Source: an uncultured Thermococci archaeon
Lineage (GTDB): Archaea > CAYQAE01 > CAYVLA01
Direction of reading: 5' to 3'
DNA length: 64,000 nucleotides
Assembly (NCBI GenBank): GCA_964549615.1
Contig: CAZJVP010000081.1
Location: 22,892 to 86,891 of the forward strand
The number at the start of each line of letters is the position of its first letter. Position 1 is the stretch's first letter. Made by a program: the position numbers and the translations under genes. The notes below the pieces were generated by a model. That model did not search any database, was not told the DNA's origin, and saw only the letters and a list, made by a program, of their open reading frames with translations. Of the stretch, positions 21,878 to 37,820 are shown piece by piece.

Positions 21878-23605
21878 TTGCTGAACGCAGACGTTGCCGA
21901 GGCGTTGGACGAGATCGCGGACATCCTGGAGATCCAAGGGGATAGGTTTAGGCCGAGGGCGTACAGGAGGGCCGCACGCTCGATCGAGAGCTCATCGGCC
22001 GACCTGGTCCAGCTGATGGCCTCCAACCAGCTCACCCGTATCCCCGGGGTAGGCGAGAGCATTGCCTCAAAGATTAGCGAGTTCGTACAGACCGGCCGGA
22101 TCACCTATCTGGAAGAACTGCGCAAGAAGGTCCCGAGCGGGGTGGCCCAACTTCTCAAGATCCCGGACGTTGGGCCGAAGACGGTCAAGCTCTTCTATGA
22201 GAAGCTGGGCATAGCCTCGATCGACGATCTAGAGCGGGCGATAGAGAGCAAGAAGCTTAGGACACTCAAGGGCATCGGGCCGAAGACCGAGGAGAACCTG
22301 ATCCGGGGAATCAACCTCGTGCGGAGGGGAGGCAGCAGGATGTTGTTGGGACGTGCCCTTCCCGTCGGCCTTGAGATCCAAAGACACCTCTCATCCACGC
22401 CGGGCGTGCAGAGGATCAGCCTAGCCGGATCGCTCAGAAGGATGAAGGAAACGGTGGGAGATCTTGACGTTCTTGTAACGTCGTCCTCACCGCCCGTGGT
22501 CACGGAAGCGTTCACGTCGATGCCGATGGTCAAGCACATCCTGGCCAAAGGTGAAACGAAGTCGAGCGTTCTGCTCACCAACGGCCTTCAGGTTGACCTG
22601 AGGATCGTTCCCGACGACTGCTTCGGCAGCGCGCTCCAGTACTTCACCGGCTCGAAGGAACATAACATCAAGCTCAGGGAGATCGCCCAACGGCGCAGCA
22701 TGAAGCTCAGCGAATACGGGTTGTTCGACGCGAGCGGCAGGAGGATCGCGGGCAGGAACGAGGAAGAGATATACCGTTCGCTGGGGATGAGTTACATCGA
22801 GCCAGAGCTCCGCGAAAACACAGGGGAGATCGAGGCCGCCGCCGAGGGCAAGCTTCCCAAGATCATCACGACCGGCGACATAAGGGGCGACTTCCACGTG
22901 CACAGCTCATGGAGCGATGGCAACCAAGACATACTGAGCATCGCGCTCAAAGCGCGCGCCCTGGGCTACGAGTACATATGCATCACGGACCACTCCCATA
23001 CCCTCAGGATCGCCAGGGGTTTGCACGAAGACCAGGTCCTGAAGCAGGTCGACGAGATACGAGAAGTGAACGCGCAGCTTGGCGATCGGCCGAAGGTGCT
23101 GGCCGGACTGGAAGTGGACATCAAGGCCGACGGTTCCCTCGACACCAAGGATGAGGTTTTGGAGCAGCTCGACCTGGTGATCGCGAGTGTTCACTCCCGC
23201 CTCAAGTCGACCCGCGCGTCGATGACGGAGAGGATGGTCCAAGCGCTCTCGACGGGACTGGTCTCCATACTTGGGCATCCAACCGGCCGGATTCTGGGGC
23301 AGAGGGAAGCATGCGCGCTTGATGAAGACGTGTTATTCGATGCGGCGTTGCAGCACCGGACATGGATGGAGATCAACGCCTTTCCGGATCGCCTCGACCT
23401 AGACGAAGGAATGGCGAGGAGAGCCGCAGGCATGGGCATCAAGCTTGCGATCGGCACCGACAGCCACGACGTTGAACAGCTTAACTACATGATGTTCGGC
23501 GTGGCAGTGGCACGAAGATCCTGGCTCGAGCGAAAGGATGTGGCCAACTGCATGGGCAAGGCCGAAGTCGTCCGGGCGCTTGCGGAGATGAGAGCTAGAC
23601 GGTAG
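21878..23605 (+). CDS. polX: DNA polymerase X with a C-terminal PHP exonuclease domain
   Basis: AYRRAA, HhH motifs, GSLRR, GDLD, VDLR, YFTGSKEHN; PHP HVH, TDH, HPTGR, TDSH. Confidence 0.93.
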   Translation: MLNADVAEALDEIADILEIQGDRFRPRAYRRAARSIESSSADLVQLMASNQLTRIPGVGESIASKISEFVQTGRITYLEELRKKVPSGVAQLLKIPDVGPKTVKLFYEKLGIASIDDLERAIESKKLRTLKGIGPKTEENLIRGINLVRRGGSRMLLGRALPVGLEIQRHLSSTPGVQRISLAGSLRRMKETVGDLDVLVTSSSPPVVTEAFTSMPMVKHILAKGETKSSVLLTNGLQVDLRIVPDDCFGSALQYFTGSKEHNIKLREIAQRRSMKLSEYGLFDASGRRIAGRNEEEIYRSLGMSYIEPELRENTGEIEAAAEGKLPKIITTGDIRGDFHVHSSWSDGNQDILSIALKARALGYEYICITDHSHTLRIARGLHEDQVLKQVDEIREVNAQLGDRPKVLAGLEVDIKADGSLDTKDEVLEQLDLVIASVHSRLKSTRASMTERMVQALSTGLVSILGHPTGRILGQREACALDEDVLFDAALQHRTWMEINAFPDRLDLDEGMARRAAGMGIKLAIGTDSHDVEQLNYMMFGVAVARRSWLERKDVANCMGKAEVVRALAEMRARR

Positions 23606-23792: not shown

Positions 23793-26276
23793 TTGGATAA
23801 GCTAGAATCCACAATTGTGCTGGCCGGCATGAGGCTTTCCCCTTTGGAGATCGCCGCACTTGTATCCTCGTCGCTAGCCTTGGCAGTCCTCGTGGCGAGG
23901 ATGGCACCGGTTGGAGCATACAAGCTCCCGGCCGCGATCGTTGTGTTTCTACTTGCCGCGATGGCCCAGCTCGCCCAGATCCAAAGATCCGGACCGCGGG
24001 ACGCCGTGAGGATCATCGGGCCCCTGAGCCTAATCTGGATCGGGGCAGTTTCCCCCGTCATCTCGATCCAACTCATCGCGATACTTGCGGCACTGGTGAT
24101 GTCCGCCGTCCTGGCGCTGCGCGCAAGGATCTATTCGATGAAGATGACTGACGTCGCGTTGATCGTCGTATCATCGCTGGCGGTCGGGGCTTTCGTATCC
24201 GCCCCCAAGGTCATGGGATACCTGACCATAATGGGACCGGGCACGGCCTTTGCGCTGTCCGCACTGATCTGCTTCATGGGCGAAACGTGGGCGCTCTCCA
24301 AGCCTGGGACTGAAAACCTGCCAAGGACGGCATTCGCTCCGCTCGCCGTCCTAGGGGTCTACCGTCTCGGCCTCTCCAGCATCGACAACGCAGGGGCGAT
24401 CATCCTCGCCGGGCTCTTCTACTACCTTGCGTTCCTGCGGTTGCTGAGGAGCAGGGCGAAGATAATGCATATCCTCGTCCTGGTGGTCGGATCCCTCGCG
24501 CTGTCCGGATTCCTCTGGGGCGAGATCCCCCCGTTGCTGGGAACCGTGGGCTCGGACGCGGAGTGGTTCCTTTTGACGAACTCAGCATTCATGCTTGTGG
24601 TTTCCCTTTGCTACTATCTGTTCACCCCGGGGATAGTGGTCGTGATGACCATTCCGATCTGGTTCCTTGGTCTCTACTGGGTGTTGGACAGGTTCCTAGG
24701 CGATTATAGGCTGGCGGGCGTGTTCAGGGGCGCCGAGCTTGTGGTGGCGGTCGTCGCGTTGGCCGCGGCGTTGGGAGCCATGCAGTACGCGTCCAGAAGG
24801 GCTGCGGCCACGGCTTACGGTGCCCCGGGAAGGTTTCAGATGAAACACATAGTCGTCTTGCTGATCGCGGCCATCGCCACGGGATCGTTCCTGACTGAGC
24901 CCACGCAGATGGGATACTCTCCGATTCAGGATCAATCGACGTGGTTCTTCGTCTCATCCGGGACGTTTCTTCTCTTAATGATCGCGCTGTCGGCAGCATT
25001 CAGCTCAAGGGCAGTGGCTGCGGTCTTCGGCCCATTCATAATCCTGTTCGGGTCAAGGGTGGTAGGAGGACAGCTTCAGTACGGACCCCAGATCTTCCTT
25101 GGTGTGGCGGTGCTTCTCTCGATCCTCTCGTGGCTTGTTCTACTTGGAACGGATTTCGTGTCCCGGACCGTCGACTCGTTCATCGGGAGGTACACGGAAC
25201 GCATGGCCGCCGTGTGGCGCTCCGAGGGCAAGGAAGAGGAGGCTGCAAAGGAGGAGTCAGCGGCTCTGAAGGGAAGGGAGGGACAGGCCCTCCAGATGCC
25301 CCCCGACCTGGACGAGCGGATACGCCGCATAAAGGCGCGCCTTGCCATCGACGAGGGCATCATCCGAGAGGTGGTGACTAACCTCTTGATGGGAAAGGAT
25401 GTAATCCTGATCGGTTCGCCGGGGACGGGCAAGACGGAGCTTGCAAAGATGATCCCCTCGATCATATTCGACAAGCCCTACAGGGTGGAGACGGCCACCT
25501 CGGACTGGACGACGTACGACGTCATCGGCGGCCTGATGTACGATGGAAAGAAGATGACCATCAAGCATGGCTGCGTCACCCAGACCGCGCTCCAAGGCGA
25601 ATGGCTGATCATAGACGAGTTCAACAGGGCTGACATAGACAAGGCCTTCGGTGGAATGTTCACCGCGATCGAGTCGCACCGCCTGAACGTCCCGACCCTA
25701 GACAATACTACGAGGACCATCCGAATACCCGACGACTATAGGATCATCGGCACCCTGAACACGTACGACAGGCACTTTTTGTTCAACATATCATACGCCC
25801 TGATGCGCCGGTTCGCCTTCATCGGGATGCCCATACCTCCGCGAGACGAGGAGCGAGCGATCCTCACCGGAGAGAGGGGAGTGGCGTTCGAGGACCTCAA
25901 GCAGGCACTGGGGCGCGGGAGGGTCGAGAGGGTGCTTTCCAGCACGCCCTACCGGAGCATAGTCGACAAGCTTCTCGACGCCATGAACCCCACCACTGGC
26001 ATCAGGAAGATAAGGGGGATCGGGACGGCCCAGATGATCGACACCATGAGGTTCGTGCTGATGGGAATGCTCACCCAAGGGGACGCTCAGCACTTGGACC
26101 TTCTGGACCGAGCGATCGAGTCCAATGTCCTTCCGCAGTTGGACGGCATGAACAGGGAAATAGACGAGGAGCTTGTGCAGACCATCGAGAGGGTCCTCGG
26201 CAAGGACTCCAGGGTTGCCTCGGAACTCAGGGCAATGACCATGGGACTTGACATACTTGACCAGCTCGCAGCATGA
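23793..26276 (+). CDS. McrB-family AAA+ GTPase fused to an N-terminal polytopic membrane domain (~14-16 TM)
   Basis: Walker A GSPGTGKT, Walker B IIDEFNRAD, KAFG, McrB NxxD signature GTLNTYDR, YALMRRFAF; first ~455 aa almost entirely hydrophobic helices. Start is 23793 (TTG) or 23829 (ATG). Confidence 0.85.
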   Translation: MDKLESTIVLAGMRLSPLEIAALVSSSLALAVLVARMAPVGAYKLPAAIVVFLLAAMAQLAQIQRSGPRDAVRIIGPLSLIWIGAVSPVISIQLIAILAALVMSAVLALRARIYSMKMTDVALIVVSSLAVGAFVSAPKVMGYLTIMGPGTAFALSALICFMGETWALSKPGTENLPRTAFAPLAVLGVYRLGLSSIDNAGAIILAGLFYYLAFLRLLRSRAKIMHILVLVVGSLALSGFLWGEIPPLLGTVGSDAEWFLLTNSAFMLVVSLCYYLFTPGIVVVMTIPIWFLGLYWVLDRFLGDYRLAGVFRGAELVVAVVALAAALGAMQYASRRAAATAYGAPGRFQMKHIVVLLIAAIATGSFLTEPTQMGYSPIQDQSTWFFVSSGTFLLLMIALSAAFSSRAVAAVFGPFIILFGSRVVGGQLQYGPQIFLGVAVLLSILSWLVLLGTDFVSRTVDSFIGRYTERMAAVWRSEGKEEEAAKEESAALKGREGQALQMPPDLDERIRRIKARLAIDEGIIREVVTNLLMGKDVILIGSPGTGKTELAKMIPSIIFDKPYRVETATSDWTTYDVIGGLMYDGKKMTIKHGCVTQTALQGEWLIIDEFNRADIDKAFGGMFTAIESHRLNVPTLDNTTRTIRIPDDYRIIGTLNTYDRHFLFNISYALMRRFAFIGMPIPPRDEERAILTGERGVAFEDLKQALGRGRVERVLSSTPYRSIVDKLLDAMNPTTGIRKIRGIGTAQMIDTMRFVLMGMLTQGDAQHLDLLDRAIESNVLPQLDGMNREIDEELVQTIERVLGKDSRVASELRAMTMGLDILDQLAA

Positions 26277-26277
26277 G

Positions 26278-29200
26278 GTGCGGCCGTTGAGGACGGAATG
26301 GATCCTTGCGCTGGCGTTCGGTCTCTTCGCGTCAACGGTGATGGCGGGAACGGACAGGCAGCTCATGGCTTTCGAGGACAGCTCCTATAGCTTGGAGAAC
26401 CGCTTCTTCAGGACCGGCTCGACCATATACTTCCAGGCGCTCGGGACCGCCCAAGCGTCAAGCCCCGTTCTTTACGTCAGATTGATGGGCGTCGAGATCC
26501 AGGTAGCCCTGACGGAGGTCGCACCCAGGTCAGGCATTTATCGGGGCGTCTTCCGGACCGGTAGCGTCACCGACGATTCCCGGGACATGATAGCGACCTA
26601 CAACGGCGCTGTGCTCCAACTTCGGTCGGATATCGATCGGGACGGGATCACGGGAACCACGGACGTCCTCAACATCACCATCGACGACCAACCCCCCATT
26701 CCCCCGAGGTGGTGCGACGCCAACGCAACGCCCTATGGATCAGTCAGAGTGAACTGGACCGAGTACGGTGAAGCCGACTTCAGACGCTACACCGTTGTTC
26801 GCGCCCTGCGGCAGGATTTTGCCGATGCGGTCGACGTCGCGAACATAACGAACCCCAAGATCTTGCAGTGGACGGATCCTGAGTACAACCTGATCAGCGG
26901 TACCTCCTATTGGTACGGCGTCTACGTCGTTGACCTCGCGGGCAACCCTTCCGTGATCAGGGCGGCCGAGAGGCCCGTCGTGCCCTTCAACGACACCAAG
27001 CCCCCGGGGAAGGTCACCGGGCTGAAGGCCACGGCGCCCGAAGGCGGCAACTCGATTAACCTGACATGGAAGGCAAGCCCTGAGAAGGACGTCGTGGGCT
27101 ATAGCATCTACCATTCCGTCGTCCCGCCGGTGGAGATCGCGAACAGAAACCTGATAGGCTTCGTCACCACCACCAGCTTCCTGCACGAGGGCATCTCGGC
27201 CAACTATCTTCACTTCTACGTCGTCGTCGCGTTCGACGAGGAGGAGAACCCGAGCCCTGCCTCAGCGCCCGTGAATGCAACGCCCGACGATACCCTCCCG
27301 CCGGGACCGCCGACCAACCTCGCCATCTCTACGGACGCGACCGGCTATCTGAATCTGACATGGTCTGCCCCGGTGGGCGAGGAGGTCTACAGATACCGGA
27401 TCTATCGATCCGAGGAGAGCGGCGCCCAGCAGTTCTGGAACCCCCTCGCCTCCACGAGCCAGACCAGTTACCTCGATCAGGCCGTCGTTCACGGGAAGAC
27501 CTACTACTACGTCGTCCGGGCATGCGACAGAGCGGGAAACGAGGAGAAGAACACCATACAGGTCGCCGCAACCTCCGTGGACACAACCCCGCCGAGACCC
27601 CCCAGGGGGCTTAGGGCCGAGGAGACGAACATAGGGGGTAGAATAAAGCTCGTGTGGCTTGCTCCCGGCGGCGAGGTCCCGGCGGAATACTGGATCTTCA
27701 GATCAACCACCCCTGGCGGCCAGAACTTCTCCAACCCCTTGGCCGTCGTTTCAAAGACGCAGTTCACCGATCGGACCGTCCAAGACGGGGTCATCTACTA
27801 CTACGTCGTGAGGGCCGTCGACATCGCCGGCAACGTCGAGACGAACACCAACGAGATAGCCGTTATGTCCCGGGACCTCACCCCACCGCCGCCCGTCCTT
27901 GACGTGATCGCACTCCCGCAGCAAGGCGGCGTGATAGGCGTAGGCTGGATGCCGCCCGGGTCCAATGTCGAGGATCCTGACCTTGCCAAGCAGATACGCG
28001 ACGACGTCCACCACTACAACGTCTACTGGAACACCTACCAAGGATTCAAGCCGGATCCCTCCAAGATGTTTTCGACAACCGAGACCAGCATACGCCACAC
28101 CAACCTGATCGATGGTCAGACCTACTACTACATAGTTCGCAGCGTGGACGCGGCGGGCAATGAGAACAAGGACGATGACAAGACCTCGGCGAGCGCGGTG
28201 GCTGATACCTCGCCGCCGGGCGCACCGACGAACCTCAAGACTTTTCGCCTCGAGGACGGCCGAATCAAGCTCGACTGGGACGCCCCCTCGGGCGAGCAAC
28301 CCTACAGGTACAACATCTACAGGTCGACGGCGCCGGGGACGCAGAGCTACAGATTCCCGTTCGCCATGGCGTTCGCGGAGACCGAGTGGATAGACGACAA
28401 CGTGACGAACGGACAACGCTATTACTACGTCGTCCGCTCGGCCGACTTCCTCCTCAACGAGGACGCGAACACGAATGAGGTCTGGAATTTCTCCGAGGAC
28501 CTCATGCCGCCGCCGGCGCCCAGAGGACTGAAGGTCACTCAGCTGGCGAAGGGCGACCTAATGTTGAACTGGACCGAGCCGGAGTACCAGGTAGCCTCCC
28601 CAAGGGGGACCGTTAGGGACGCTGACAGGGTCGCCTTCTACAGGGTCTACGTCTCGGAATTGCCCGGGCAACAGGACTTCAGCAGGCCCGTTGCAGAGAC
28701 CAAAGAGACCTACTTCATCGACAGGGGATTGAGGGATATGGTCAACTACTATTACGTCGTCAGGTCGGTTGACTCCGCCGGCAACGAGGATGAGAATCGG
28801 AACGAGGTGCGGGGGACCGCCGATGCCAGCCCGCCAAGCCCACCGGTGGATGCGTTCGCGCAGAGAAGCCCGAGGGGCGAGGTCGTGCTCTCGTGGTCGG
28901 ACCCGGACGGGGAACCAGTCTTCGAGTACAGGATATACAAGTTTACTGGAAACGAGACGCAGACCTTCACATCCCCTCTGGCGGTGACAAGGAAGAACCT
29001 CTTCGTTGACAACGACGTTTCACAGGCCGTTCAGTACCGATACGTTATCAGGTCCGTAGACAAGGCCGGGAACGAAGGCCGCAACACCAACGAGATATTG
29101 GCGCCCGTGCTGCTGGGCCCGCCGCTGAAGGTTGAGGCTCGAGCTTCCAAGGGCGGCGCGATCGACCTCACCTGGGAACCGCCGGCCGGAGCAAAGGACT

Positions 29201-31269
29201 CGGTCAGGGAATACAACATCTACAGGAGCGTTGTCCCCGGCGTGGAGCAGATCGGCGACCCGTGGGCCACCACCGTTCTGACGATGTACAAGGACACAAG
29301 CAGGGTGGTCGGCGGGACCATCCACTATATGGTCGATGGCACGCGCTACTACTACACGATCAGGGCGGTGGATATGTACGGCAACGAGGGCATGAGATCC
29401 GCAGAGGTCAGCGCGGTCTCCGACAGCCAACCGCCGGGCAAACCTCGCGACCTAACGGCGAGGGCCGAGCCGAACGGCGAGATCACGCTCATGTGGCTCG
29501 CTCCCGTCGGGGAAAGGGCGGCAAGCTACAGGATCTACCGATCCACAAAGTCCGGAACCTTCAACTTCTTGGTACCCCTCGACGAGACAACGAGGATCAT
29601 CTACTATGACAAGAGCGTCAAGAGCATGACGACCTATTACTACGTGGTCAGGGCGGTCGATGAAGCGGGCAACGAGGAACAGAACACCGATGAGGTGTCC
29701 GTCATGGCCTTCGATGCTCCGCCGCAAGCGCCCAGAAACCTCAGGGCCCAGGTGAGGCCCAACGGCTCAATAACCCTCATCTGGGACCAGCCGCTTGGCG
29801 AGATGGTTGCCCACTACAACATCTACCGTTCCCTTGAGTCCGGAAAGTACAACTACGCGGAACCATATGCAAGGACGACCCTGACGACTTTCACCGATGG
29901 CTTCGTGGAGCACGGCATCACCTACTACTACGTCGTCCGGGCAGTGGACAGCACCGGAAACGAGGAAGACAACAAGAACGAGATCTCAAGAATGTCCCAG
30001 GATACGGAGCCCCCGGCGCCTCCCGCCGGACTTGAAGCCATCCCTGCCGGGACAGGAAGCATTTTGTTGCAATGGCGGGACCCCGAGGGGGAGAGACCAG
30101 CAGGCTACATCGTGTATCGGTCGCAATCTCCCTTCTTCAAGCCGGGAATCCAGAACCTCTTGGCCCGGACGCAAGGGAACTCCTACCTCGACGCTGGGCT
30201 GGGGGATGCCCAGACCTACTACTACGTGGTCCACTCCGTAGATTCGATAGGCAATGAGGATGAGAACGAGAACCGGGTGCAGGCAACGACCCCGCCGCCA
30301 CCGCCTTCCAACCTTTCGGCATCGAACAACGAGAGAGGCGAGATCGTCCTCGTCTGGAAGATCCCCAGTACCCCCGCCGCGAAGTTCAGGATCTACAGAT
30401 CCACGAGAAGCAGGAACTACGACCTCTCGAGCCCCTTGGCCGAAGTCCCCTATCCCACGAGCACCTACATCGATTCTGGACTTAACCAGAGCCAGACCTA
30501 CTACTACGTCGTAAGGTCCGTGGATGCCCGCGGCGCCGAGGAGTCCAACCTGAACGAGGTGCACGCCGTCTCGATTGAGACGATCCCGCCGGCTTCTCCA
30601 ACCGCCCTTCGGGCGACCCAGGAAATCAGCGGAGCGATCGGCCTGTCGTGGAACCACCCTGATCCGCGGGACGTATCGCTGTACAATATCTATCGCTGCG
30701 ATGGGGCGCCCAACATCGCCAAGGCCACCCTGCTGGCATCGACGAACCAGACATCGTTTGTGGACGTCAACGTCACGAGCGGCAAGACATATTCCTATCT
30801 GGTGAGGGCGGTCGACATCCACGGCAATCAGGAGGGAAACGTCAACTGGACATCCATCATGTCGCTTGACACGCTTCCGCCGGCGCCCCCAAGCAACCTC
30901 ACGGCGCGGGCTCGGTCTGGAGGATCGATCGAGCTGAGCTGGCAGCCGTCGGGCGAGAGAGGCGTCACCTACAGCATCTACAGGGCCATGTCTAAGGATC
31001 CAGCCAATGCCTCCCTCATAGCGTCCACCAACCTCACGACGTATGTGGATAGCAAGTTGATCAACGGCAGGGAGTACTTCTACCTGGTGCGAGCAAGGGA
31101 TTCTGCAGGCAACGAGGAACGCAATGAGGTGATGGTGAGCGCGGTCGCCAGCAAGGCCGGGCCCAGGGTTCTGCTAGCATTGCTGCTGATCGCCGTCTTT
31201 GTCTCGGGAGCCTATGCTGTGGACAGACGCATACGGACCTCGCAGACGCGCACGAGCGCTCGTGGGTGA
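26278..31269 (+). CDS. Large cell-surface protein with 15 fibronectin type III repeats
   Basis: Signal peptide from GTG 26278; 15 copies of L.W...Y.IYRS...YYYVVRAVD.AGN; C-terminal TM VLLALLLIAVFVSGAYAV plus basic tail. Confidence 0.9.
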   Translation: MRPLRTEWILALAFGLFASTVMAGTDRQLMAFEDSSYSLENRFFRTGSTIYFQALGTAQASSPVLYVRLMGVEIQVALTEVAPRSGIYRGVFRTGSVTDDSRDMIATYNGAVLQLRSDIDRDGITGTTDVLNITIDDQPPIPPRWCDANATPYGSVRVNWTEYGEADFRRYTVVRALRQDFADAVDVANITNPKILQWTDPEYNLISGTSYWYGVYVVDLAGNPSVIRAAERPVVPFNDTKPPGKVTGLKATAPEGGNSINLTWKASPEKDVVGYSIYHSVVPPVEIANRNLIGFVTTTSFLHEGISANYLHFYVVVAFDEEENPSPASAPVNATPDDTLPPGPPTNLAISTDATGYLNLTWSAPVGEEVYRYRIYRSEESGAQQFWNPLASTSQTSYLDQAVVHGKTYYYVVRACDRAGNEEKNTIQVAATSVDTTPPRPPRGLRAEETNIGGRIKLVWLAPGGEVPAEYWIFRSTTPGGQNFSNPLAVVSKTQFTDRTVQDGVIYYYVVRAVDIAGNVETNTNEIAVMSRDLTPPPPVLDVIALPQQGGVIGVGWMPPGSNVEDPDLAKQIRDDVHHYNVYWNTYQGFKPDPSKMFSTTETSIRHTNLIDGQTYYYIVRSVDAAGNENKDDDKTSASAVADTSPPGAPTNLKTFRLEDGRIKLDWDAPSGEQPYRYNIYRSTAPGTQSYRFPFAMAFAETEWIDDNVTNGQRYYYVVRSADFLLNEDANTNEVWNFSEDLMPPPAPRGLKVTQLAKGDLMLNWTEPEYQVASPRGTVRDADRVAFYRVYVSELPGQQDFSRPVAETKETYFIDRGLRDMVNYYYVVRSVDSAGNEDENRNEVRGTADASPPSPPVDAFAQRSPRGEVVLSWSDPDGEPVFEYRIYKFTGNETQTFTSPLAVTRKNLFVDNDVSQAVQYRYVIRSVDKAGNEGRNTNEILAPVLLGPPLKVEARASKGGAIDLTWEPPAGAKDSVREYNIYRSVVPGVEQIGDPWATTVLTMYKDTSRVVGGTIHYMVDGTRYYYTIRAVDMYGNEGMRSAEVSAVSDSQPPGKPRDLTARAEPNGEITLMWLAPVGERAASYRIYRSTKSGTFNFLVPLDETTRIIYYDKSVKSMTTYYYVVRAVDEAGNEEQNTDEVSVMAFDAPPQAPRNLRAQVRPNGSITLIWDQPLGEMVAHYNIYRSLESGKYNYAEPYARTTLTTFTDGFVEHGITYYYVVRAVDSTGNEEDNKNEISRMSQDTEPPAPPAGLEAIPAGTGSILLQWRDPEGERPAGYIVYRSQSPFFKPGIQNLLARTQGNSYLDAGLGDAQTYYYVVHSVDSIGNEDENENRVQATTPPPPPSNLSASNNERGEIVLVWKIPSTPAAKFRIYRSTRSRNYDLSSPLAEVPYPTSTYIDSGLNQSQTYYYVVRSVDARGAEESNLNEVHAVSIETIPPASPTALRATQEISGAIGLSWNHPDPRDVSLYNIYRCDGAPNIAKATLLASTNQTSFVDVNVTSGKTYSYLVRAVDIHGNQEGNVNWTSIMSLDTLPPAPPSNLTARARSGGSIELSWQPSGERGVTYSIYRAMSKDPANASLIASTNLTTYVDSKLINGREYFYLVRARDSAGNEERNEVMVSAVASKAGPRVLLALLLIAVFVSGAYAVDRRIRTSQTRTSARG

Positions 31270-31276
31270 GACGCGA

Positions 31277-32647
31277 ATGGAGGAAGCGCTCGAAGAATCG
31301 ATGAAGTCCTTCATGAGGAAGAGGGTCTTCGCGCTCCTGCTCACCAACTTCCTTGGGAACCTGGAGCTAAAGAGGATAGAAGTCCAGATCGGCCGTGAGA
31401 CCAAACTCGACCTATCGCGGAAGAAGTTCGAGGACGCCTTCAAGCTGAACTCGCTGGAATCGATCTCCCACATCCTGCTCAACGAGATAATGCCCATGAT
31501 AGAGAAGAAGCCCAGCTTCTTCTCGACCAGGCAGAGGAGCATCTGCGAGAAGGAGATAAGGGGCGTGATCGACTGGCCCCGAACCTTCAAGCGCAACCTC
31601 TGCCAGGGACAGCTGATCGGCAAGGAGTTCGTCGTGGTGAACCCTCGACAGGAGTGGGACACCCCCGAGAACCTGCTCTCCATGCTTTGCCTCCTTGACA
31701 TAGTGAAGAACACGTCGTACTTCAAGAGAACGTTCAGGGAATCGGTGGAGAGCTCAAAGTGGTCCGAGAGGATCGTGGAGTCGCGGGTCCTCGACGCGAT
31801 TGCCCAAGAAGGGCTGAGAAGAACCAAGATGCCCTACTTCAGGGACATGGAGGAAGAAGTCGAGGAACTCTTGGACGACTCGTCAAAGATCGAGGAGCTG
31901 GAACGGGAGTTCGAAAGGCGGGTTCAGCTCAATCTTATTCGGAACCCCGGATACGAGCGAGTCTATCAGTGGCGAAGGGAGTTCTTGGGGCAGGCCGACG
32001 TGCAGAGGGAGTCGACCAGGATCCTCAGGGACATACCGGGCGAGGGCATCGAGTACATGTCCAAGCTCTACGAGATCTGGACGCTCTTCGAGGTCGCCGA
32101 CGTCATGGAGGAGCAGGTCCAGCTTTTCAAGTACTACTCCGAGGTCGGCGAGGGCCCCCTCTTCACCGGGACCCTGCCCAACCCCAGCCGCGAGGGAATC
32201 TCATCCGAGAACATCGAGATCGAGCTCTACTACCTTCCGGCACAACGCGTGGCGGAGGGCGTATGGCGGAGGAGCGCTCAAGCAAAAAGCTTTCTCCGAG
32301 CCTTCTACCCAGACGGGACGAAGGAGGACAGAGCCATCTACCTGCGAGGCTCCTGCCCCATGGAGTTCTCACCCGGCCAGAAGAGGAGGGTCGAGGTGTC
32401 GGTTGGGATCTTCCCAAGGTTCAGGGAAATCCAGACCCAGATCGAGCCCGAGGTTGACCTGATCGCTCTCCCGCTTCACCCGTCCGACGACAGGGAAGCT
32501 CTGAACCGCAAGCTCCTGTACAATCTCACCAAGTACATCCGCGGCATTCCGTTCTCGTCCGAATCCAAAGGAATCGTGCTTCATCCCGCGACCTGGTCAC
32601 CCCTGACAGGCAGCCCCGGCCAAGCCCTGGGCAGCGTTGAGGCCTGA
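31277..32647 (+). CDS. McrC-like (DUF2357-type) protein, nuclease motif apparently degenerate
   Basis: EIRGVIDWPRT, WDTPENLL, SKLYEIWTLF and terminal LIALPLHP; no PD...(D/E)xK motif visible after LYE.W. Confidence 0.7.
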   Translation: MEEALEESMKSFMRKRVFALLLTNFLGNLELKRIEVQIGRETKLDLSRKKFEDAFKLNSLESISHILLNEIMPMIEKKPSFFSTRQRSICEKEIRGVIDWPRTFKRNLCQGQLIGKEFVVVNPRQEWDTPENLLSMLCLLDIVKNTSYFKRTFRESVESSKWSERIVESRVLDAIAQEGLRRTKMPYFRDMEEEVEELLDDSSKIEELEREFERRVQLNLIRNPGYERVYQWRREFLGQADVQRESTRILRDIPGEGIEYMSKLYEIWTLFEVADVMEEQVQLFKYYSEVGEGPLFTGTLPNPSREGISSENIEIELYYLPAQRVAEGVWRRSAQAKSFLRAFYPDGTKEDRAIYLRGSCPMEFSPGQKRRVEVSVGIFPRFREIQTQIEPEVDLIALPLHPSDDREALNRKLLYNLTKYIRGIPFSSESKGIVLHPATWSPLTGSPGQALGSVEA

Positions 32648-33522: not shown

Positions 33523-34485
33523 CTACCTCCAGTACCTAGGGTAGACGCCTCTCGGCATCACTACCCTGGCAAGATCGACCGCCATTCCCGAGTCCCGCTC
33601 GAATATCTCCTTTGCCGACAAGCGGCTTTGCCCCACGCCGATAAGTTCCCCCTTCAACGTCAGCACCGCAACGGTGCCCATGGCTGTAACGGTGCTCTCG
33701 CACTTGACGATCCCAGGCAGGGCAAGGCCTGCCCCGTTGCAAAGCGCTTCCACGGCCGTGTCTCGGACCCAGATCTTGGGCATGTCTTTGATGAACTCCT
33801 CGACCGGCAGCACTAGTCTCCTGAGCTCGGTCTCGTCACCGTGTTCTCTGAGATAGTGCATCGCGTCGACCAGATCTTGGAGCGTGCAGCAGTCGCTCTC
33901 CGAGAAACGGCCCGAGCGAATCCTTCTCAACTCGGACATGTTCGCCCCGACGAGCAGCGCTTCGCCCATATCCCGACACAGCTTCCTGATGTAGGTTCCT
34001 GCCTCGCACGAGACCTCGAATAGGATGTCGCGCCCCTTGCGCTCGATGAGGTTTAGGGAGTAGATCATCCTTTCCCTGGACTCCCTTTTGACAGCCGCCT
34101 TGACGGGCGGTGTCTGGAGAATCTTGCCGGTGAAGGCCGAGAAGACCTCCCGGACCTTTCCGTCATCGACTTCGCCGTGAAGCGTCATCACACAGACGTA
34201 GGCCTTGTCCGACTTGAGCAGGTACCTTACGAGACGGGTTGACCGCCCCAGAGCTATCGGCAAAACTCCCGACACCTTAGGATCCAGGGTGCCGCCGTGT
34301 CCGGCCCTCTCCACCTTGAGAACGTCCCTGACCCAAGCAACTACTTGGTGGGACGTGGGGCCGCGGGGCTTGTCCAAGTTGACTATGCCAAAGTCCAACA
34401 GCTGACTGACGGGACGCTTGTAGGGATCCACGCCAAACTGAGGGTCGGTGGTGTCCTTGGATCTCAGGTATATCTCAACATCCAC
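33523..34485 (-). CDS. cbf5: H/ACA RNA-guided pseudouridine synthase Cbf5
   Basis: LDKPRGPTSHQV, GHGGTLDPKVSG, GTYIRKLC, PUA domain. Confidence 0.95.
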   Translation of the reverse strand: MDVEIYLRSKDTTDPQFGVDPYKRPVSQLLDFGIVNLDKPRGPTSHQVVAWVRDVLKVERAGHGGTLDPKVSGVLPIALGRSTRLVRYLLKSDKAYVCVMTLHGEVDDGKVREVFSAFTGKILQTPPVKAAVKRESRERMIYSLNLIERKGRDILFEVSCEAGTYIRKLCRDMGEALLVGANMSELRRIRSGRFSESDCCTLQDLVDAMHYLREHGDETELRRLVLPVEEFIKDMPKIWVRDTAVEALCNGAGLALPGIVKCESTVTAMGTVAVLTLKGELIGVGQSRLSAKEIFERDSGMAVDLARVVMPRGVYPRYWR

Positions 34486-34514
34486 CGCCGACCACCAAGA
34501 ACGCGGGGATCTTC

Positions 34515-34772
34515 TCAGGAGATGAATGCTTCGAGGAGGCCCGACTTCTCGAGAACCTTTATGATCTCCTCGTCCTCCGCCCTCCTGCGAATCTCGATCT
34601 TCTTGTCCAACGGCTCCAGGTGGGCCACGTTGCATCGTCGCCTCTTCACGCCCGATATCTTCTCGGGCCCCGTGACGAGGACGAAGTTCTTGTCGATGTG
34701 GTCGACAACGATGCACTTCCTTCCGCTCTCATTTCCCTGAATCTTTATGCATACCCTTCCTATTTCGATCAT
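34515..34772 (-). CDS. rpl14e: 50S ribosomal protein L14e
   Basis: IEIGRVCIK..G.E.G.KC.VVD, GVKRRRCN..HLEP. Confidence 0.95.
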   Translation of the reverse strand: MIEIGRVCIKIQGNESGRKCIVVDHIDKNFVLVTGPEKISGVKRRRCNVAHLEPLDKKIEIRRRAEDEEIIKVLEKSGLLEAFIS

Positions 34773-35589: not shown

Positions 35590-36432
35590 CTAGACCACTC
35601 CGAACATCTTCCTGAATATTGAGCTGAACCAGGTGGCGGATGCAAAGTACCATGCTATGAAGCCGAACTGGTCAGCACTGATAGCATTGTTCTGGTGGAA
35701 GAACTGCATGAAGCTCAACCTGAATGGCAGCTCGACCACGGGCACTAGGTTGTAATGGGCCTGGAGGAAGTAGAATACAGCGAACAGCGGAATCATGTAA
35801 ATTATCATGGGCTTGAACTGGCTTCTCATCAGTTCCGACTGAAGGCTTAACATCTCCGCCTGCTTCTTCTTCATCTTGGCAATCTTCTTCTGGTCGCCGC
35901 TGCGCTGTGCGGCCATCAATTCCTTCTGGAACTCGCTCACCTTCTCCCGTACGACCTTGAGCCTCTTCTGATCAACCATGTAGTAGCTCAGCAACGTGGT
36001 GAAAAGTGAGGTGAGCGCGGAGAGGACGAAGATGACGAACTTGGCATTGCCCTGGCTCATCATCTTGGTGACCTCGAACTCGGCGACAAGCATCTCGCTC
36101 ACGATCCTTTGCTGCTCGAAATCCACCCCGCTTACGTTGAGGTCAAGTCTCCACCTGCCCTCTCGGTTGAAAGGCGTCCTCCAGCTGAAGTTGCTCCCCG
36201 CCCCCACGTCGGCAAGCTTTTCAAGCCGGATCACGGTTCCGTCCGGACCGACGAAGTTGCCTTCCATGCTTATGCCCGTCAAAGAGGGATTGCCGATGGT
36301 GAGCCTGAAGAACACAGTGCTTCCTTCCATCACGCTTGCGTTCAGAACCTGGAGGGTGGAGCCTTGGCAGGACGCTTCCTGCAGAACCGCAATGAACAGC
36401 AGCGCGGCCCATGCTTTGACCCGTATTCGCAC
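35590..36432 (-). CDS. DUF106 / EMC3-TMCO1 (Oxa1 superfamily) membrane insertase with an extra N-terminal domain
   Basis: TM1, cytosolic coiled coil, QFKPMIIYMIP, GFIAWYF...FRKMFG; located between secY and rpl34e. Confidence 0.85.
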   Translation of the reverse strand: MRIRVKAWAALLFIAVLQEASCQGSTLQVLNASVMEGSTVFFRLTIGNPSLTGISMEGNFVGPDGTVIRLEKLADVGAGSNFSWRTPFNREGRWRLDLNVSGVDFEQQRIVSEMLVAEFEVTKMMSQGNAKFVIFVLSALTSLFTTLLSYYMVDQKRLKVVREKVSEFQKELMAAQRSGDQKKIAKMKKKQAEMLSLQSELMRSQFKPMIIYMIPLFAVFYFLQAHYNLVPVVELPFRLSFMQFFHQNNAISADQFGFIAWYFASATWFSSIFRKMFGVV

Positions 36433-36433
36433 C

Positions 36434-37798: not shown

Positions 37799-37820
37799 GC
37801 CAACAACCGTCCTATGAACC

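What the first reader, a model, noticed from the sequence alone, without database searches (positions are those of the whole stretch)
23793..32647. Membrane-embedded McrB, giant FN3 surface protein and nuclease-less McrC in one operon: a candidate repurposed McrBC system
Seen: three co-directional genes with 1-nt and 7-nt gaps. Gene 1 has all McrB GTPase motifs (GSPGTGKT, DEFNRAD, NTYD, ALMRRF) behind ~455 aa of TM helices. Gene 2 is a signal-peptide and TM-anchored 15xFN3 protein. Gene 3 has McrC-type motifs (RG.IDW..T, DTPEN, LYE.W). Established: in type IV McrBC restriction, the McrB N-terminus carries a nucleic-acid-reading domain, McrC stimulates the McrB hexamer and cuts DNA, and the two genes are normally adjacent. 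Inference: the reader has been replaced by a membrane domain and an extracellular protein has been placed between B and C, so the motor may respond to cell-surface events (virus or symbiont contact, DNA entry) or drive a membrane or surface-assembly process. I know of no described system with this architecture.
Basis: partly seen in the sequence, partly recalled or inferred. Interest (0 to 1): 0.92.

Follow-up and report, generated by a model that had tools for sequence, protein, structure and literature searches.

The report
Membrane-bound McrBC relative with surface stalk
An uncultured archaeal family has turned a DNA-cutting defence motor (McrBC) into a conserved three-gene membrane machine: the motor is welded to a 16-helix membrane domain, its partner has lost its DNA-cutting site, and a giant 15-domain cell-surface stalk protein is encoded between them.

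Summary
Gene 1 (23793-26276) is about 16 transmembrane helices fused to a true McrB-clade AAA+ domain. It is 33% identical to E. coli McrB, has the NxxD motif, and sits on the McrB side of the tree rather than with MoxR. Gene 2 (26278-31269) encodes a signal peptide, a cap domain, 15 FN3 repeats, a TM anchor and a short tail. Gene 3 (31277-32647) hits no Pfam model. Its profile reaches nuclease-bearing proteins that sit directly downstream of McrB-like genes in 5 of 5 assessable Nitrosopumilaceae loci, and its AlphaFold model hits E. coli and T. gammatolerans McrC first and second with two aligners. The finger motifs are invariant. The PD...DxK catalytic residues are essentially gone (0 of 14 for P, the DxK D and K; 1 of 14 for the PD aspartate). 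The order g1-g2-g3 holds in 7 of 7 assessable related loci. All three genes are under purifying selection (omega 0.05-0.16). The block lies in core-genome synteny, not in a defence island. I read it as an exapted, non-restriction McrBC motor working at the membrane with the FN3 stalk; what it outputs is inferred, not shown. I found no description of this architecture.

The parts
23793..26276 (+). Gene 1: polytopic membrane domain fused to a McrB-type AAA+ NTPase (827 aa; TTG start, alternative ATG at 23829)
   Evidence: ORF, translation. A single open frame of 818-836 aa in the 12 protein clusters. Pairwise 62-84% identity to the window protein among the 13 sequences aligned.
23835..25163 (+). 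Gene 1 membrane domain, residues 15-457: about 16 TM helices arranged as four ~110-aa units of about 4 helices each, of which three are demonstrably related
   Evidence: Hydropathy. Internal repeats: unit B vs D z = 7.6 and C vs D z = 7.8, with 0 of 200 shuffles reaching the score; unit A is weak at z = 1.6. No Pfam hit in the membrane part of any of 13 orthologs. No PDB sequence hit, no paralog in the own genome, no stand-alone homolog of 258-823 aa, and the Atlas was blank.
25164..25307 (+). Charged linker of about 48 aa (residues 458-505) between the last TM helix and the AAA+ module
   Evidence: Sequence. Mean pairwise identity 65% among 13 orthologs.
25308..26273 (+). Gene 1 McrB-type AAA+ module (residues 506-827): Walker A GSPGTGKT, Walker B DEFNRAD, signature NTYD (NxxD), RR helix ALMRRF
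   Evidence: PF07728 AAA_5 3.1e-18. PDB McrB hits. 33% identity to E. coli McrB, E = 4e-17. 35-40% identity to EVE-, SRA- and Mrr_N-fused McrB-like proteins. Tree. Motifs invariant in 13 of 13. Mean pairwise identity 90% over residues 506-700.
26278..31269 (+). Gene 2: type I membrane surface protein, 1663 aa from GTG 26278 (alternative TTG 26287)
   Evidence: Orthologs of 1655-1684 aa are colinear over their full length at 60-82% identity.
26278..26685 (+). Gene 2 signal peptide (residues 1-23) and N-terminal cap domain (residues 24-136)
   Evidence: Sequence. The cap has no Pfam hit (protein 5) and no significant PDB hit (best E = 1.4). Mean pairwise identity 63%.
26686..31149 (+). Gene 2 array of 15 tandem FN3 repeats (residues 137-1624)
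   Evidence: PF00041 2e-52. 15 domains found with a self-built HMM. Every repeat is conserved at 54-73%, with no hypervariable repeat. 22 N-x-S/T sequons.
31159..31266 (+). Gene 2 C-terminal TM anchor (residues 1628-1650) and basic cytoplasmic tail (residues 1651-1663)
   Evidence: Sequence. TM 62% and tail 39% mean pairwise identity. No paralog of the last 60 aa in the own genome. Weak co-fold support with the gene 1 membrane domain.
31277..32647 (+). Gene 3: McrC-like partner, 456 aa, with an intact finger domain and a catalytically dead PD-(D/E)xK-like domain
31520..31654 (+). Gene 3 beta-stalk with loop-helix-loop tip (residues 82-126), carrying IRGVIDWPRT
   Evidence: AF2 model: strands 82-90 and 118-126 flank helix 100-109. 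G96 and T103 are invariant in 62 of 62, and W100 in 61 of 62. hhalign pairs the motif with IKGRIEFAKTI of E. coli McrC. Niu et al. describe this element in the TgMcrC finger (PMC7680126, passages seen).
32045..32584 (+). Gene 3 C-terminal alpha/beta domain (residues 257-436): the PD-(D/E)xK fold region without the catalytic P-D...D-x-K and without the following KML.YL helix
   Evidence: Residue counts, lineage (n = 14) against outgroup (n = 48). P of PD: 0/14 vs 47/48. D of PD: 1/14 vs 46/48. D of DxK: 0/14 vs 47/48. K of DxK: 0/14 vs 46/48. The KML.YL helix is gapped in 14/14. Model pLDDT is about 60-92 across this region.

Best explanation
This is an exapted McrBC module that no longer restricts DNA.

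Shown:
- Gene 1 is a McrB-clade NTPase with all catalytic motifs, permanently tethered to the membrane by its own 16-helix domain.
- Gene 3 is a McrC homolog. It keeps the finger that plugs and stimulates the McrB ring, but has lost the nuclease active site.
- Gene 2, a 15-FN3 stalk about 50 nm long (my estimate), anchored by one TM helix, is an obligate third component.
- The unit is inherited vertically in the core genome of one archaeal family and is under purifying selection.

Inferred:
- Six gene 1 subunits form a cytoplasmic ring hanging on ~48-residue linkers under a 96-helix membrane assembly.
- The side of the ring that carries the N-terminal domains, which is also the McrC side in solved complexes, faces the membrane. 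The dead-nuclease head of gene 3 would therefore sit between ring and membrane.
- NTP hydrolysis steps around the ring, driven by the gene 3 finger.
- With no enzyme effector in the operon, the output is mechanical. It passes through the membrane domain to the TM anchor of the FN3 stalk, for assembling, holding, tensioning, moving or turning over this surface structure.

I rate a housekeeping envelope role of this kind as more likely than immunity. The confidence given is for this whole mechanism. That the unit is a repurposed, non-restriction McrBC derivative which includes gene 2 I hold at about 0.85.
For: McrB identity of gene 1.

McrC identity of gene 3:
- The profile search finds 59 proteins, and the distant ones carry IRGxIDWxxT, TPEN, YELW, PDF and DAKNY.
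- The profile's best PDB sequence hit is T. gammatolerans McrC, E = 0.002.
- A profile built only from 11 distant nuclease-bearing homologs hits gene 3 at 2.5e-30.
- With the 62-sequence model (pLDDT 77.7), Foldseek ranks 1-2 are E. coli McrC (6hz4_M: E = 7.5e-4, prob 0.98).

B and C are co-inherited. In 5 of 5 assessable Nitrosopumilaceae loci the gene 3 homolog lies directly downstream of a protein 34-36% identical to the gene 1 AAA module.

Nuclease loss with the finger retained.

Gene 2 belongs to the unit.
- The order g1-g2-g3 holds in G001 and G002 and in 5 of 5 metagenome loci that reach far enough. g2-g3 adjacency holds in 6 of 6.
- The block stays together where the downstream flank differs (L029/L030).
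- By my reading of the ORF coordinates, gaps are about 13 nt or less.
- Gene 2 has no paralog in the genome.
- Co-fold of the gene 1 membrane domain with the gene 2 C-terminus: ipSAE 0.55, best of 3 controls 0.00, verdict 'weak support'. At this mark 58 of 80 solved complexes and 2 of 110 mismatched pairs pass. At 0.60 or under, only 7 of those 80 solved complexes pass and so do both mismatches. Runs agree in at least 84% of contacts and the partner pLDDT is at least 74.

Housekeeping rather than defence:
- Gene 1 and gene 3 are present in 4 of 4 genomes of the family.
- The block is syntenic with PolX on one side and a methyltransferase, Cbf5, EMC3-like and SecY on the other.
- omega is 0.105 for g1, 0.119-0.155 for g2 and 0.053-0.135 for g3, at dS 0.34-0.89.
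- All 15 FN3 repeats and the cap are evenly conserved (54-73%), with no variable tip.
- By contrast the nuclease-bearing relatives are patchy (3 of 151 Nitrosopumilaceae genomes), and one sits beside an MmeI-type RM gene.

Geometry and the stepping model come from Niu et al. 2020 (PMC7680126; passages seen).
Against: - No experiment or expression data exist, and no RNA run was listed.
- The function of the membrane domain is unknown.
- The co-fold pass is in the weak band. Its controls were unrelated natural proteins, so generic packing of a TM helix against a polytopic domain was not controlled for.
- Hexamer formation, NTP specificity and stimulation by gene 3 were not tested. Non-canonical McrB homologs can be nucleotide-promiscuous (bioRxiv 10.64898/2026.08.31.748284; passages seen).
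- Vertical inheritance and synteny do not exclude an immune role that became fixed in this lineage.
- The lineage is narrow: 14 protein clusters for gene 3 among 5.8 billion. All comparisons are therefore between fairly close kin.
- Which basic residue of gene 3 replaces TgMcrC Arg263 / EcMcrC Lys157 is not resolved. R215 is a candidate (14/14 in the lineage, 34/48 in the outgroup).
Confidence: 0.45

Rival explanations
1. It is an envelope-sensing immune or abortive-infection system. The FN3 stalk, or the outer loops of the membrane domain, detect virus attachment or envelope breach. The signal gates the McrB-McrC NTPase cycle. The 16-TM domain is the effector, for example a pore that collapses membrane potential, and so replaces the lost nuclease.
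For: - Both the B and C components descend from defence-type McrBC pairs.
- Loss of the nuclease leaves the membrane domain as the only candidate effector in the operon.
- From recall, not checked here: membrane-anchored defence systems such as Zorya and Kiwa provide a logic of this kind.
Against: - The unit is present in 4 of 4 family genomes at a conserved core-genome position next to SecY and Cbf5, not in a variable island.
- It has no PADLOC match beyond noise.
- Gene 2 shows no hypervariable region and keeps exactly 15 orthologous repeats.
- omega is low and uniform.
- None of these points excludes a fixed immune function.
Confidence: 0.22
2. It is a DNA conduit. The membrane-embedded McrB ring, together with a DNA-binding but non-cutting McrC, moves DNA across or along the membrane for uptake or export. 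The FN3 stalk would capture DNA or partner cells.
For: - McrB powers translocation along DNA in canonical systems (abstract of PMC7680126, seen in the listing).
- Inactivated PD-(D/E)xK domains are proposed to keep nucleic-acid binding in CoCoNuTs (PMC11090510; passage seen).
- A PolX gene lies directly upstream in the window.
Against: - In solved McrBC complexes McrC occludes the ring pore, which argues against threading DNA through it (PMC7680126; passage seen).
- PolX adjacency is not conserved. H+-PPase and BKACE or FmdE genes intervene in G001, G002 and L030.
- No DNA-binding domain was detected in any of the three proteins.
Confidence: 0.08
3. Gene 2 is a co-transcribed passenger. The membrane McrB / dead McrC pair works on its own, for example as a membrane-protein remodelling or quality-control NTPase, and the FN3 protein is functionally independent.
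For: - The physical link between gene 1 and gene 2 rests on gene order plus one weak co-fold pass.
- This genome is rich in membrane-anchored surface proteins in general (earlier notes).
Against: - Gene 2 sits between B and C in 7 of 7 assessable loci, across divergence down to about 60% amino-acid identity and across a change of flank.
- Gene 2 is unique in the genome.
- Canonical relatives have B and C directly adjacent or overlapping. An insertion kept between them is therefore more likely to be selected than tolerated.
Confidence: 0.1
4. It is a decaying remnant of a McrBC system with a chance insertion.
For: The nuclease motif is lost.
Against: - All three frames are intact in the assessable relatives.
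- The NTPase and finger motifs are invariant.
- omega is 0.05-0.16.
Confidence: 0.02

Closest known systems
Canonical McrBC type IV restriction (E. coli EcoKMcrBC; Thermococcus gammatolerans McrBC; PDB 6hz4, 6ut6, 6ut5)
   Same: - The AAA+ module has Walker A, Walker B, NxxD and the RR helix.
- The partner has a helical-bundle finger, a beta-stalk and a loop-helix-loop tip, followed by a PD-(D/E)xK-like fold.
- B is upstream of C in one operon.
   Different: - The N-terminal DNA reader is replaced by about 16 TM helices.
- The catalytic PD...DxK of McrC is lost.
- A 1663-aa extracellular FN3 protein is encoded between B and C.
- The unit sits in a core-genome context and is inherited vertically, not patchily in defence islands.
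Two-gene McrBC-like pairs of Nitrosopumilaceae and other, mostly unnamed, sources: the nearest relatives found here (L008, L009, L035-L037; P0031-P0138; P0139-P0196)
   Same: - The B modules are 34-40% identical to gene 1.
- The C proteins share IRGxIDWxxT, TPEN, the R215 column and YELW with gene 3.
   Different: - Among the 108 listed relatives outside the lineage, none shows more than one hydrophobic stretch by my hydropathy threshold. Some carry EVE (PF01878) or other soluble-domain Pfam families at the N-terminus.
- Their nuclease motif is intact (46-47 of 48).
- B and C are adjacent with no intervening gene.
- They are patchy (3 of 151 genomes), and one lies beside an MmeI-type RM gene.
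[quoted passage not shown] 2024, PMC11090510; passages seen)
   Same: A McrB homolog is fused to a membrane-spanning segment and linked by gene context to a cell-surface or secretion-related function, not to DNA restriction.
   Different: - CoCoPALM belongs to the NxD clade. It has an FtsB-like TM plus coiled-coil segment and signal-peptidase / pilus-assembly neighbours. The paper says the related CoCoNuTs are nearly absent in archaea.
- Here the motif is NxxD, the membrane domain is an orphan 16-TM domain, the neighbour is an FN3 stalk, and the host is an archaeon.
- The paper defers CoCoPALM to a later publication, and I could not see its supplements.
LlaI / BsuMI three-gene McrBC systems (bioRxiv 10.64898/2026.08.31.748284; abstract and passages seen)
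   Same: They have a three-gene organisation, in which the specificity function is a separate polypeptide that binds the AAA+ motor.
   Different: R1 is a cytoplasmic site-specific DNA-binding protein, and the systems are active nucleases. Here the third protein is extracellular and the nuclease is dead.
Type II (and III-B/III-C) CoCoNuT CnuC homologs with an inactivated PD-(D/E)xK domain (PMC11090510; passages seen)
   Same: A McrC homolog keeps the nuclease fold but not the active site.
   Different: In CoCoNuTs other nucleases (HEPN and others) are proposed to take over. No nuclease or other enzyme is encoded in this operon.
Functional analogies only, from recall and not checked here: the Mycoplasma mobile gliding machinery (an F1-ATPase-derived internal motor driving giant TM-anchored surface 'leg' proteins), and Zorya (a membrane stator-like complex in defence)
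   Same: In both, a motor has been repurposed and coupled through the membrane to a large surface structure or to envelope sensing.
   Different: There is no homology, and no evidence here for motility.

Membership tests
McrB-type AAA+ GTPase | [quoted passage not shown] | tested here: met
   GSPGTGKT and IIDEFNRAD align with GPPGVGKT and IIDEINRAN of E. coli McrB. They are invariant in 13 of 13 orthologs.
McrB-type AAA+ GTPase | [quoted passage not shown] | tested here: met
   NTYD 656-659 aligns with NTAD of E. coli McrB. N656 and D659 are invariant. The definition comes from passages seen.
McrB-type AAA+ GTPase | Closer to McrB than to MoxR / CbbQ / NorQ / RavA | tested here: met
   PDB: McrB 1.5e-12 and 7e-9, against CbbQ 9e-4 and NorQ 6.5e-3. 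Tree: a branch with SH-aLRT 97 separates 3 MoxR-like rows from the 53 rows holding g1 and E. coli McrB. One badly extracted MoxR-like row (L019, branch length 10) fell inside the 53 and should be disregarded.
McrB-type AAA+ GTPase | N-terminal nucleic-acid or modified-base reader domain | tested here: not met
   Residues 1-457 are about 16 TM helices with no Pfam, NCBIfam or PDB match.
McrB-type AAA+ GTPase | Nucleotide-dependent hexamer; GTP hydrolysis stimulated by McrC | not testable with these tools
   This needs purified protein. Nucleotide preference cannot be assumed (passages seen).
McrC (DUF2357 finger + PD-(D/E)xK nuclease) | Match to the curated sequence models (Pfam; NCBIfam) | tested here: not met
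   At E up to 0.1 the only Pfam row was a sub-threshold MiaE_2 hit and NCBIfam gave no row. None of 10 distant homologs matched a McrC-type family either; the one row among them was a sub-threshold PI3K_p85B hit.
McrC (DUF2357 finger + PD-(D/E)xK nuclease) | Finger-domain fold: helical bundle, beta-stalk and loop-helix-loop tip | tested here: met
McrC (DUF2357 finger + PD-(D/E)xK nuclease) | Conserved basic residue that stimulates McrB (TgMcrC Arg263 / EcMcrC Lys157) | tested here: inconclusive
   R215 is conserved in 14/14 of the lineage and 34/48 of the outgroup. It lies in the stretch that VIA aligns to TgMcrC residues 140-279. No residue-level superposition was available.
McrC (DUF2357 finger + PD-(D/E)xK nuclease) | Catalytic PD...(D/E)xK residues | tested here: not met
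   Lineage counts: P 0/14, D of PD 1/14, D of DxK 0/14, K 0/14. Outgroup: 46-47 of 48.
McrC (DUF2357 finger + PD-(D/E)xK nuclease) | Encoded with a McrB gene in one operon | tested here: met
   It is in the same operon, but separated from B by gene 2. The nearest relatives are directly downstream of B in 5 of 5 assessable loci.
Type IV (McrBC) restriction system | Modification-dependent DNA recognition and cleavage | tested here: not met
   There is no reader domain and no nuclease active site (see the rows above). I therefore do not file this as a restriction system.
CoCoNuT / CoCoPALM branch | NxD variant of the signature motif | tested here: not met
   The motif is NTYD, that is NxxD. The definition comes from passages seen.
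MoxR-VWA chaperone pairs | VWA-domain partner; MoxR-clade AAA+ | tested here: not met
   No VWA domain is found in the operon, and the AAA module is on the McrB side of the tree.
FN3-repeat surface protein | Tandem fn3 domains, a signal peptide and a membrane anchor | tested here: met
   PF00041 2e-52. 15 repeats, a signal peptide and a C-terminal TM helix.

The most novel reading that the evidence does not exclude
The McrB ring and its McrC plug work as a stepping or rotary motor, as proposed for canonical McrBC by analogy with F/V-ATPases. Here the motor is fixed under the membrane, and its motion is passed through the 96-helix membrane assembly to a 15-FN3 'leg' about 50 nm long. That would be a previously unknown kind of NTP-driven archaeal surface machine for adhesion, retraction or gliding, derived from a restriction enzyme. 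It would parallel the F1-ATPase-derived gliding motor of Mycoplasma mobile (an analogy from recall).
Probability: 0.1. Interest if true: 0.95.

Novelty: new variant of a known kind. Interest (0 to 1): 0.76.

Why it matters
McrBC is the textbook GTP-driven restriction motor. How its ring-and-plug mechanics produce work is still debated. It has kept the motor and plug under strong selection and bolted them to a large membrane domain and an extracellular stalk.

If the three proteins form one complex, this would be a clear case of a defence motor exapted into a cell-envelope machine. It would show that the McrB-McrC core can deliver mechanical output to something other than DNA. It would also give a first handle on a lineage-specific surface structure of an uncultured sediment archaeon.

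Its reach is limited by the narrow distribution: one archaeal family, with 14 gene 3 clusters among 5.8 billion proteins.

Tried and rejected
**Searches that found nothing**
- PADLOC gave only noise-level hits for all three proteins.
- Pfam and NCBIfam gave nothing for gene 3, and Pfam gave nothing for the gene 1 membrane part in any of 13 orthologs.
- phmmer against the PDB: gene 3, 0 hits at E up to 10. Membrane domain, 0 hits. Gene 2 cap, only E = 1.4 to a protein deposited as a G-D-S-L lipolytic enzyme, which is not significant.
- ESM Atlas gave no usable hit for the membrane domain or the gene 2 cap.
- The scan of viral contigs with the gene 3 family found no relative.
- RNA evidence: no RNA holder was listed, so read laying was not used and co-transcription is inferred from spacing only.

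**Steps that failed or were uninformative**
- The first AF2 model of gene 3, from 14 close orthologs, was poor (pLDDT 49.5) and its Foldseek search was empty. A 62-sequence alignment fixed this.
- The search for related loci with the 40-sequence alignment A3 failed because it had no conserved stretch. I repeated it with the 11 closer sequences of A4.
- The bacterial promoter and terminator scan was uninformative for an archaeon: 4 promoter-like sites against 2.6 expected, and 4 terminator-like sites against 5.4 expected.

**Ideas rejected**
- Gene 2's anchor does not belong to the expanded surface-protein anchor family that earlier notes describe in this genome: BLAST of its last 60 aa found only itself.
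- H+-PPase and BKACE or FmdE, which lie upstream of gene 1 in relatives, are not part of the unit. They are absent at this position in the window and in L027, and their functions are unrelated.

**Limits**
- No stand-alone relative of the membrane domain was found among proteins of 258-823 aa. That search depends on shared words, and longer or shorter proteins were not searched.
- Only the best 120 of 1572 McrB-domain hits were inspected for TM helices, so TM-fused McrB proteins further away are not excluded.

Full report
**1. What is there**

The window is archaeal core chromosome. The flanking genes include Cbf5 (TruB_N, DKCLD and PUA domains), an EMC3/TMCO1-like insertase, SecY and a PolX polymerase. 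G+C is even at 57-62%, with no compositional island.

Three + strand ORFs fill 23793-32647. The junctions are tight. The gene 1 stop at 26274-26276 is followed by one base and then GTG at 26278. The gene 2 stop at 31267-31269 is followed by seven bases and then ATG at 31277. A TTG at 26287 is an alternative gene 2 start.

**2. Gene 1**

*Membrane domain.* Residues 15-457 hold about 16 hydrophobic helices. By my count on that output, K/R cluster in alternate loops, about 17 against 5. This fits an N-in/C-in topology with the AAA+ module in the cytoplasm.

The domain is built of ~110-aa units of about four helices each. Units B, C and D are significantly related (z = 7.6 and 7.8; 0 of 200 shuffles reach the score). 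Unit A is not clearly related (z = 1.6).

The domain matches nothing:
- no Pfam hit in the membrane part of any of 13 orthologs;
- no PDB sequence hit;
- no paralog in the own genome;
- no stand-alone relative of 258-823 aa;
- a blank in the Atlas.

*AAA+ module.* A charged ~48-aa linker leads to an AAA_5 module (E = 3.1e-18). Its best single-stretch PDB hits are E. coli McrB (1.5e-12) and T. gammatolerans McrB (7e-9), against CbbQ (9e-4) and NorQ (6.5e-3). The higher summed score to midasin comes from eight weak repeats.

BLASTP against E. coli K-12 McrB gives 33% identity over 178 residues, E = 4e-17. It aligns Walker A, Walker B, NTYD with NTAD, and ALMRRF with ALRRRF. NxxD is the signature of McrB GTPases (PMC11090510; passages seen). 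These motifs are invariant in 13 of 13 orthologs.

The module is 35-40% identical over more than 80% of its length to many proteins that carry EVE (PF01878) or other Pfam families on the same chain. I know several of those other accessions as modified-DNA reader domains only from recall.

In a quick maximum-likelihood tree of 56 rows, the lineage is one clade (SH-aLRT 99). It lies on the McrB side of a 97-supported branch that separates 3 MoxR-like proteins. A fourth MoxR-like row was a bad extraction (branch length 10) and is disregarded.

Among the 120 best McrB-domain relatives, only the 12 clusters of this lineage have multiple TM helices (8-12 at a strict threshold). The other 108 have none or one.

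**3. Gene 3**

Pfam, NCBIfam, PADLOC and the PDB sequence search gave nothing. Only 14 clusters at 61% identity or more exist among 5.8 billion proteins.

*Profile evidence.* A full HMMER profile search found 59 proteins. The distant ones (16-23% identity) share IRGxIDWxxT, TPEN, a conserved arginine and YELW with gene 3. They also carry PDF...DAKNY, a PD-(D/E)xK nuclease motif. The joint profile's best PDB sequence hit is T. gammatolerans McrC, E = 0.002, over the nuclease motif.

*Context evidence.* In Nitrosopumilaceae, these distant homologs lie directly downstream of proteins 34-36% identical to the gene 1 AAA module. This holds in 5 of 5 loci with upstream sequence; L010 is cut at the contig end and cannot be judged. 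One such locus neighbours an MmeI-type RM gene. The system is patchy there, in 3 of 151 genomes searched.

*Reciprocal test.* A profile of 11 of these distant proteins alone hits gene 3 in G000-G003 at 1e-28 to 1e-33, and nothing in the sister family's genome G004.

*Fold evidence.* With the 62-sequence alignment AlphaFold2 gave pLDDT 77.7.
- Foldseek ranks 1 and 2 are E. coli McrC (6hz4_M: E = 7.5e-4, prob 0.98; then 6ut6_G). T. gammatolerans McrC is at ranks 9-10.

The model shows two long strands (82-90 and 118-126) around a loop-helix-loop that carries IRGVIDWPRT. This is the 'stalk' and 'tip' that Niu et al. describe as plugging the McrB pore (PMC7680126; passages seen). hhalign pairs this motif with IKGRIEFAKTI of E. 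coli McrC (E = 7e-4, probability 26%).

*Nuclease loss.* The table gives how many sequences carry the residue.

| Position | Lineage (n = 14) | Outgroup (n = 48) |
|---|---|---|
| P of PD | 0 | 47 |
| D of PD | 1 | 46 |
| D of DxK | 0 | 47 |
| K of DxK | 0 | 46 |
| Following KML.YL helix | gapped in all 14 | consensus helix (K 31, M 33, L 30, Y 35, L 37) |

By contrast G96, W100, T103, T129-P-E-N132, R215, E266, W268 and E272 are 14 of 14. Gene 3 is therefore a McrC homolog that keeps the motor-binding finger and has lost the nuclease.

**4. Gene 2**

From N- to C-terminus the protein has (fn3 2e-52):
- a signal peptide;
- a 113-aa cap with no detectable relatives;
- 15 contiguous FN3 repeats;
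- a TM helix;
- a 13-aa basic tail.

It has no paralog in the own genome for the cap, the repeats or the anchor. It is thus not a member of the expanded anchored surface-protein family that earlier notes report in this genome.

Orthologs (1655-1684 aa) are colinear over their full length. Every repeat and the cap are conserved at 54-73% mean pairwise identity, and there is no hypervariable tip.

**5. Is the trio a unit?**

- The order g1-g2-g3 holds in G001 (same genus) and G002 (another genus).
- It holds in 5 of 5 metagenome loci that extend far enough upstream. g2-g3 adjacency holds in 6 of 6.
- G003 has gene 1 and gene 3 on fragmented contigs.
- By my reading of the ORF coordinates, intergenic gaps are about 13 nt or less throughout.
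- The block usually lies between PolX and the run of methyltransferase, Cbf5, EMC3-like and SecY genes.
- The upstream neighbours vary: H+-PPase and BKACE or FmdE are inserted in some relatives.
- In L029/L030 the downstream flank is different, with a BNR protein and an integrase, yet the block stays intact.
- At unsaturated dS (0.34-0.89), NG86 omega is 0.105 for gene 1, 0.119-0.155 for gene 2 and 0.053-0.135 for gene 3.
- G004, the only genome of the sister family searched, and 56 other archaeal genomes lack gene 3 with this query. G004 has only 25%-identical MoxR-like hits to gene 1.
- The viral contigs hold no relative.

*Co-fold.* I folded the gene 1 membrane domain (residues 1-470) with the last FN3 repeat, TM helix and tail of gene 2. 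The result was ipSAE 0.55 (runs 0.50, 0.55, 0.55) against 0.00 for the best of 3 controls, with the verdict 'weak support'. The mark is reached by 58 of 80 solved complexes and 2 of 110 mismatched pairs. At 0.60 or under, only 7 of those 80 solved complexes reach it, and so do both mismatches. The runs agree in at least 84% of contacts and the partner pLDDT is at least 74. The controls were unrelated natural proteins, so generic TM-TM packing is not excluded.

**6. Mechanism**

*Shown.* The unit is a McrBC-derived pair without reader and without nuclease, tied to the membrane and to an extracellular stalk. It is selected as a unit and inherited vertically.

*From published structures* (PMC7680126; passages seen):
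- McrC's finger spans the McrB pore, and its tip contacts all six subunits.
- One basic residue re-sets the NxxD loop of one active site at a time.
- Hydrolysis is proposed to step around the ring, 'reminiscent of F/V-type ATPases'.

*Inferred here.*
- The gene 1 ring hangs beneath its own membrane domains with its top side towards the membrane.
- The dead-nuclease head of gene 3 therefore lies between ring and membrane.
- With no other enzyme in the operon, the output is mechanical or conformational. It passes through the 16-TM domains to or from the anchor of the FN3 stalk.

I favour a constitutive envelope role: assembly, holding, tensioning, movement or turnover of the stalk. The reasons are core synteny, presence in 4 of 4 family genomes, uniform purifying selection and the absence of a variable tip. 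An immune sensor with the membrane domain as effector is the main rival. DNA transport and a passenger gene 2 are less likely, and decay is excluded.

**7. Comparison with what is known**

- I do not file this as a type IV restriction system, because two defining features (reader and nuclease) were tested and not met.
- It works like, and descends from, McrBC of the NxxD clade.
- Bell et al. 2024 (PMC11090510; passages seen) describe CoCoPALM, in which NxD-clade McrB is fused to an FtsB-like TM/coiled-coil segment with pilus-assembly neighbours. They also describe inactivated PD-(D/E)xK domains in some CnuC homologs. Membrane linkage and nuclease loss each therefore have a precedent.
- LlaI and BsuMI are three-gene McrBC systems with a separate cytoplasmic DNA-binding subunit (bioRxiv 10.64898/2026.08.31.748284; passages seen).
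- I found no description of a polytopic membrane McrB, a nuclease-dead McrC and an FN3 stalk together. No paper holds 'McrB', 'transmembrane helices' and 'fibronectin type III' (0 papers). The broader searches returned nothing of the kind among the papers listed. 'CoCoPALM' relevantly occurs only in Bell et al. and its preprint. The EVE census has no occurrence of 'transmembrane' (PMC7641849).

**8. Verdict**

The reading of a repurposed McrBC system is supported, while its function remains open. I class it as a new variant of a known kind. Interest is high for AAA+ and defence-evolution specialists, tempered by the narrow phyletic range and the absence of functional data.

Noticed in passing
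window 21878-23605 (+): A full-length PolX-family polymerase (HHH_8, HhH, Pol beta palm and thumb, and a C-terminal PHP domain) lies directly upstream of gene 1. In G001, G002 and L030, H+-PPase plus BKACE or FmdE genes sit between PolX and gene 1, so the adjacency is not conserved. The own genome's only H+-PPase match is 50% identical and lies on another contig (C30).
   Followed up: partly
window 35590-36456 (-) and 36434-37957 (-): An EMC3/TMCO1-like (Oxa1-superfamily) membrane insertase ORF overlaps the start of the SecY ORF by 23 nt. The pair is conserved in L007, L027 and L031.
   Followed up: no
L009 1044-3743 (-), 3994-8359 (+), 8662-11748 (+): In one Nitrosopumilus MAG the canonical relative of this system (McrB-like 966 aa plus nuclease-bearing McrC-like 504 aa) is flanked by a DEAD/Helicase_C protein with an MrfA Zn-binding (MZB) domain and by an MmeI/Eco57I-type RM fusion. 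This looks like a defence island.
   Followed up: partly
P0128, P0132: Two McrB-like AAA_5 proteins of about 938 aa carry a PF00127 (copper-binding, plastocyanin-like) domain. P0128 is named by its source as Nitrosopumilus. This is an odd partner for a McrB motor.
   Followed up: no
G003:C22:8794-9054 and 9173-11068: In the third genus, gene 1 matches in two pieces (query residues 6-92 and 196-826), with about 100 residues of the membrane domain missing between them. This could be an assembly problem or a real deletion of one 4-TM unit.
   Followed up: no
L029 / L030 11984-16812: In one sub-lineage the genes downstream of gene 3 are small unknown ORFs, a BNR/sialidase-like protein and a tyrosine recombinase, instead of the methyltransferase, Cbf5 and SecY block. 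This is a local rearrangement next to the operon.
   Followed up: partly
window 33523-34716 (-): The Cbf5 ORF as listed (397 aa, GTG start) has about 80 residues before the DKCLD domain. tblastn to L007 aligns only from residue 70, so the true start is probably further downstream.
   Followed up: no
P0146, P0159, P0171, P0174, P0178, P0181, P0182: A subgroup of the distant gene 3 relatives is 750-820 aa long, with about 300 extra C-terminal residues after the nuclease domain. I did not examine the extension or their neighbours.
   Followed up: no
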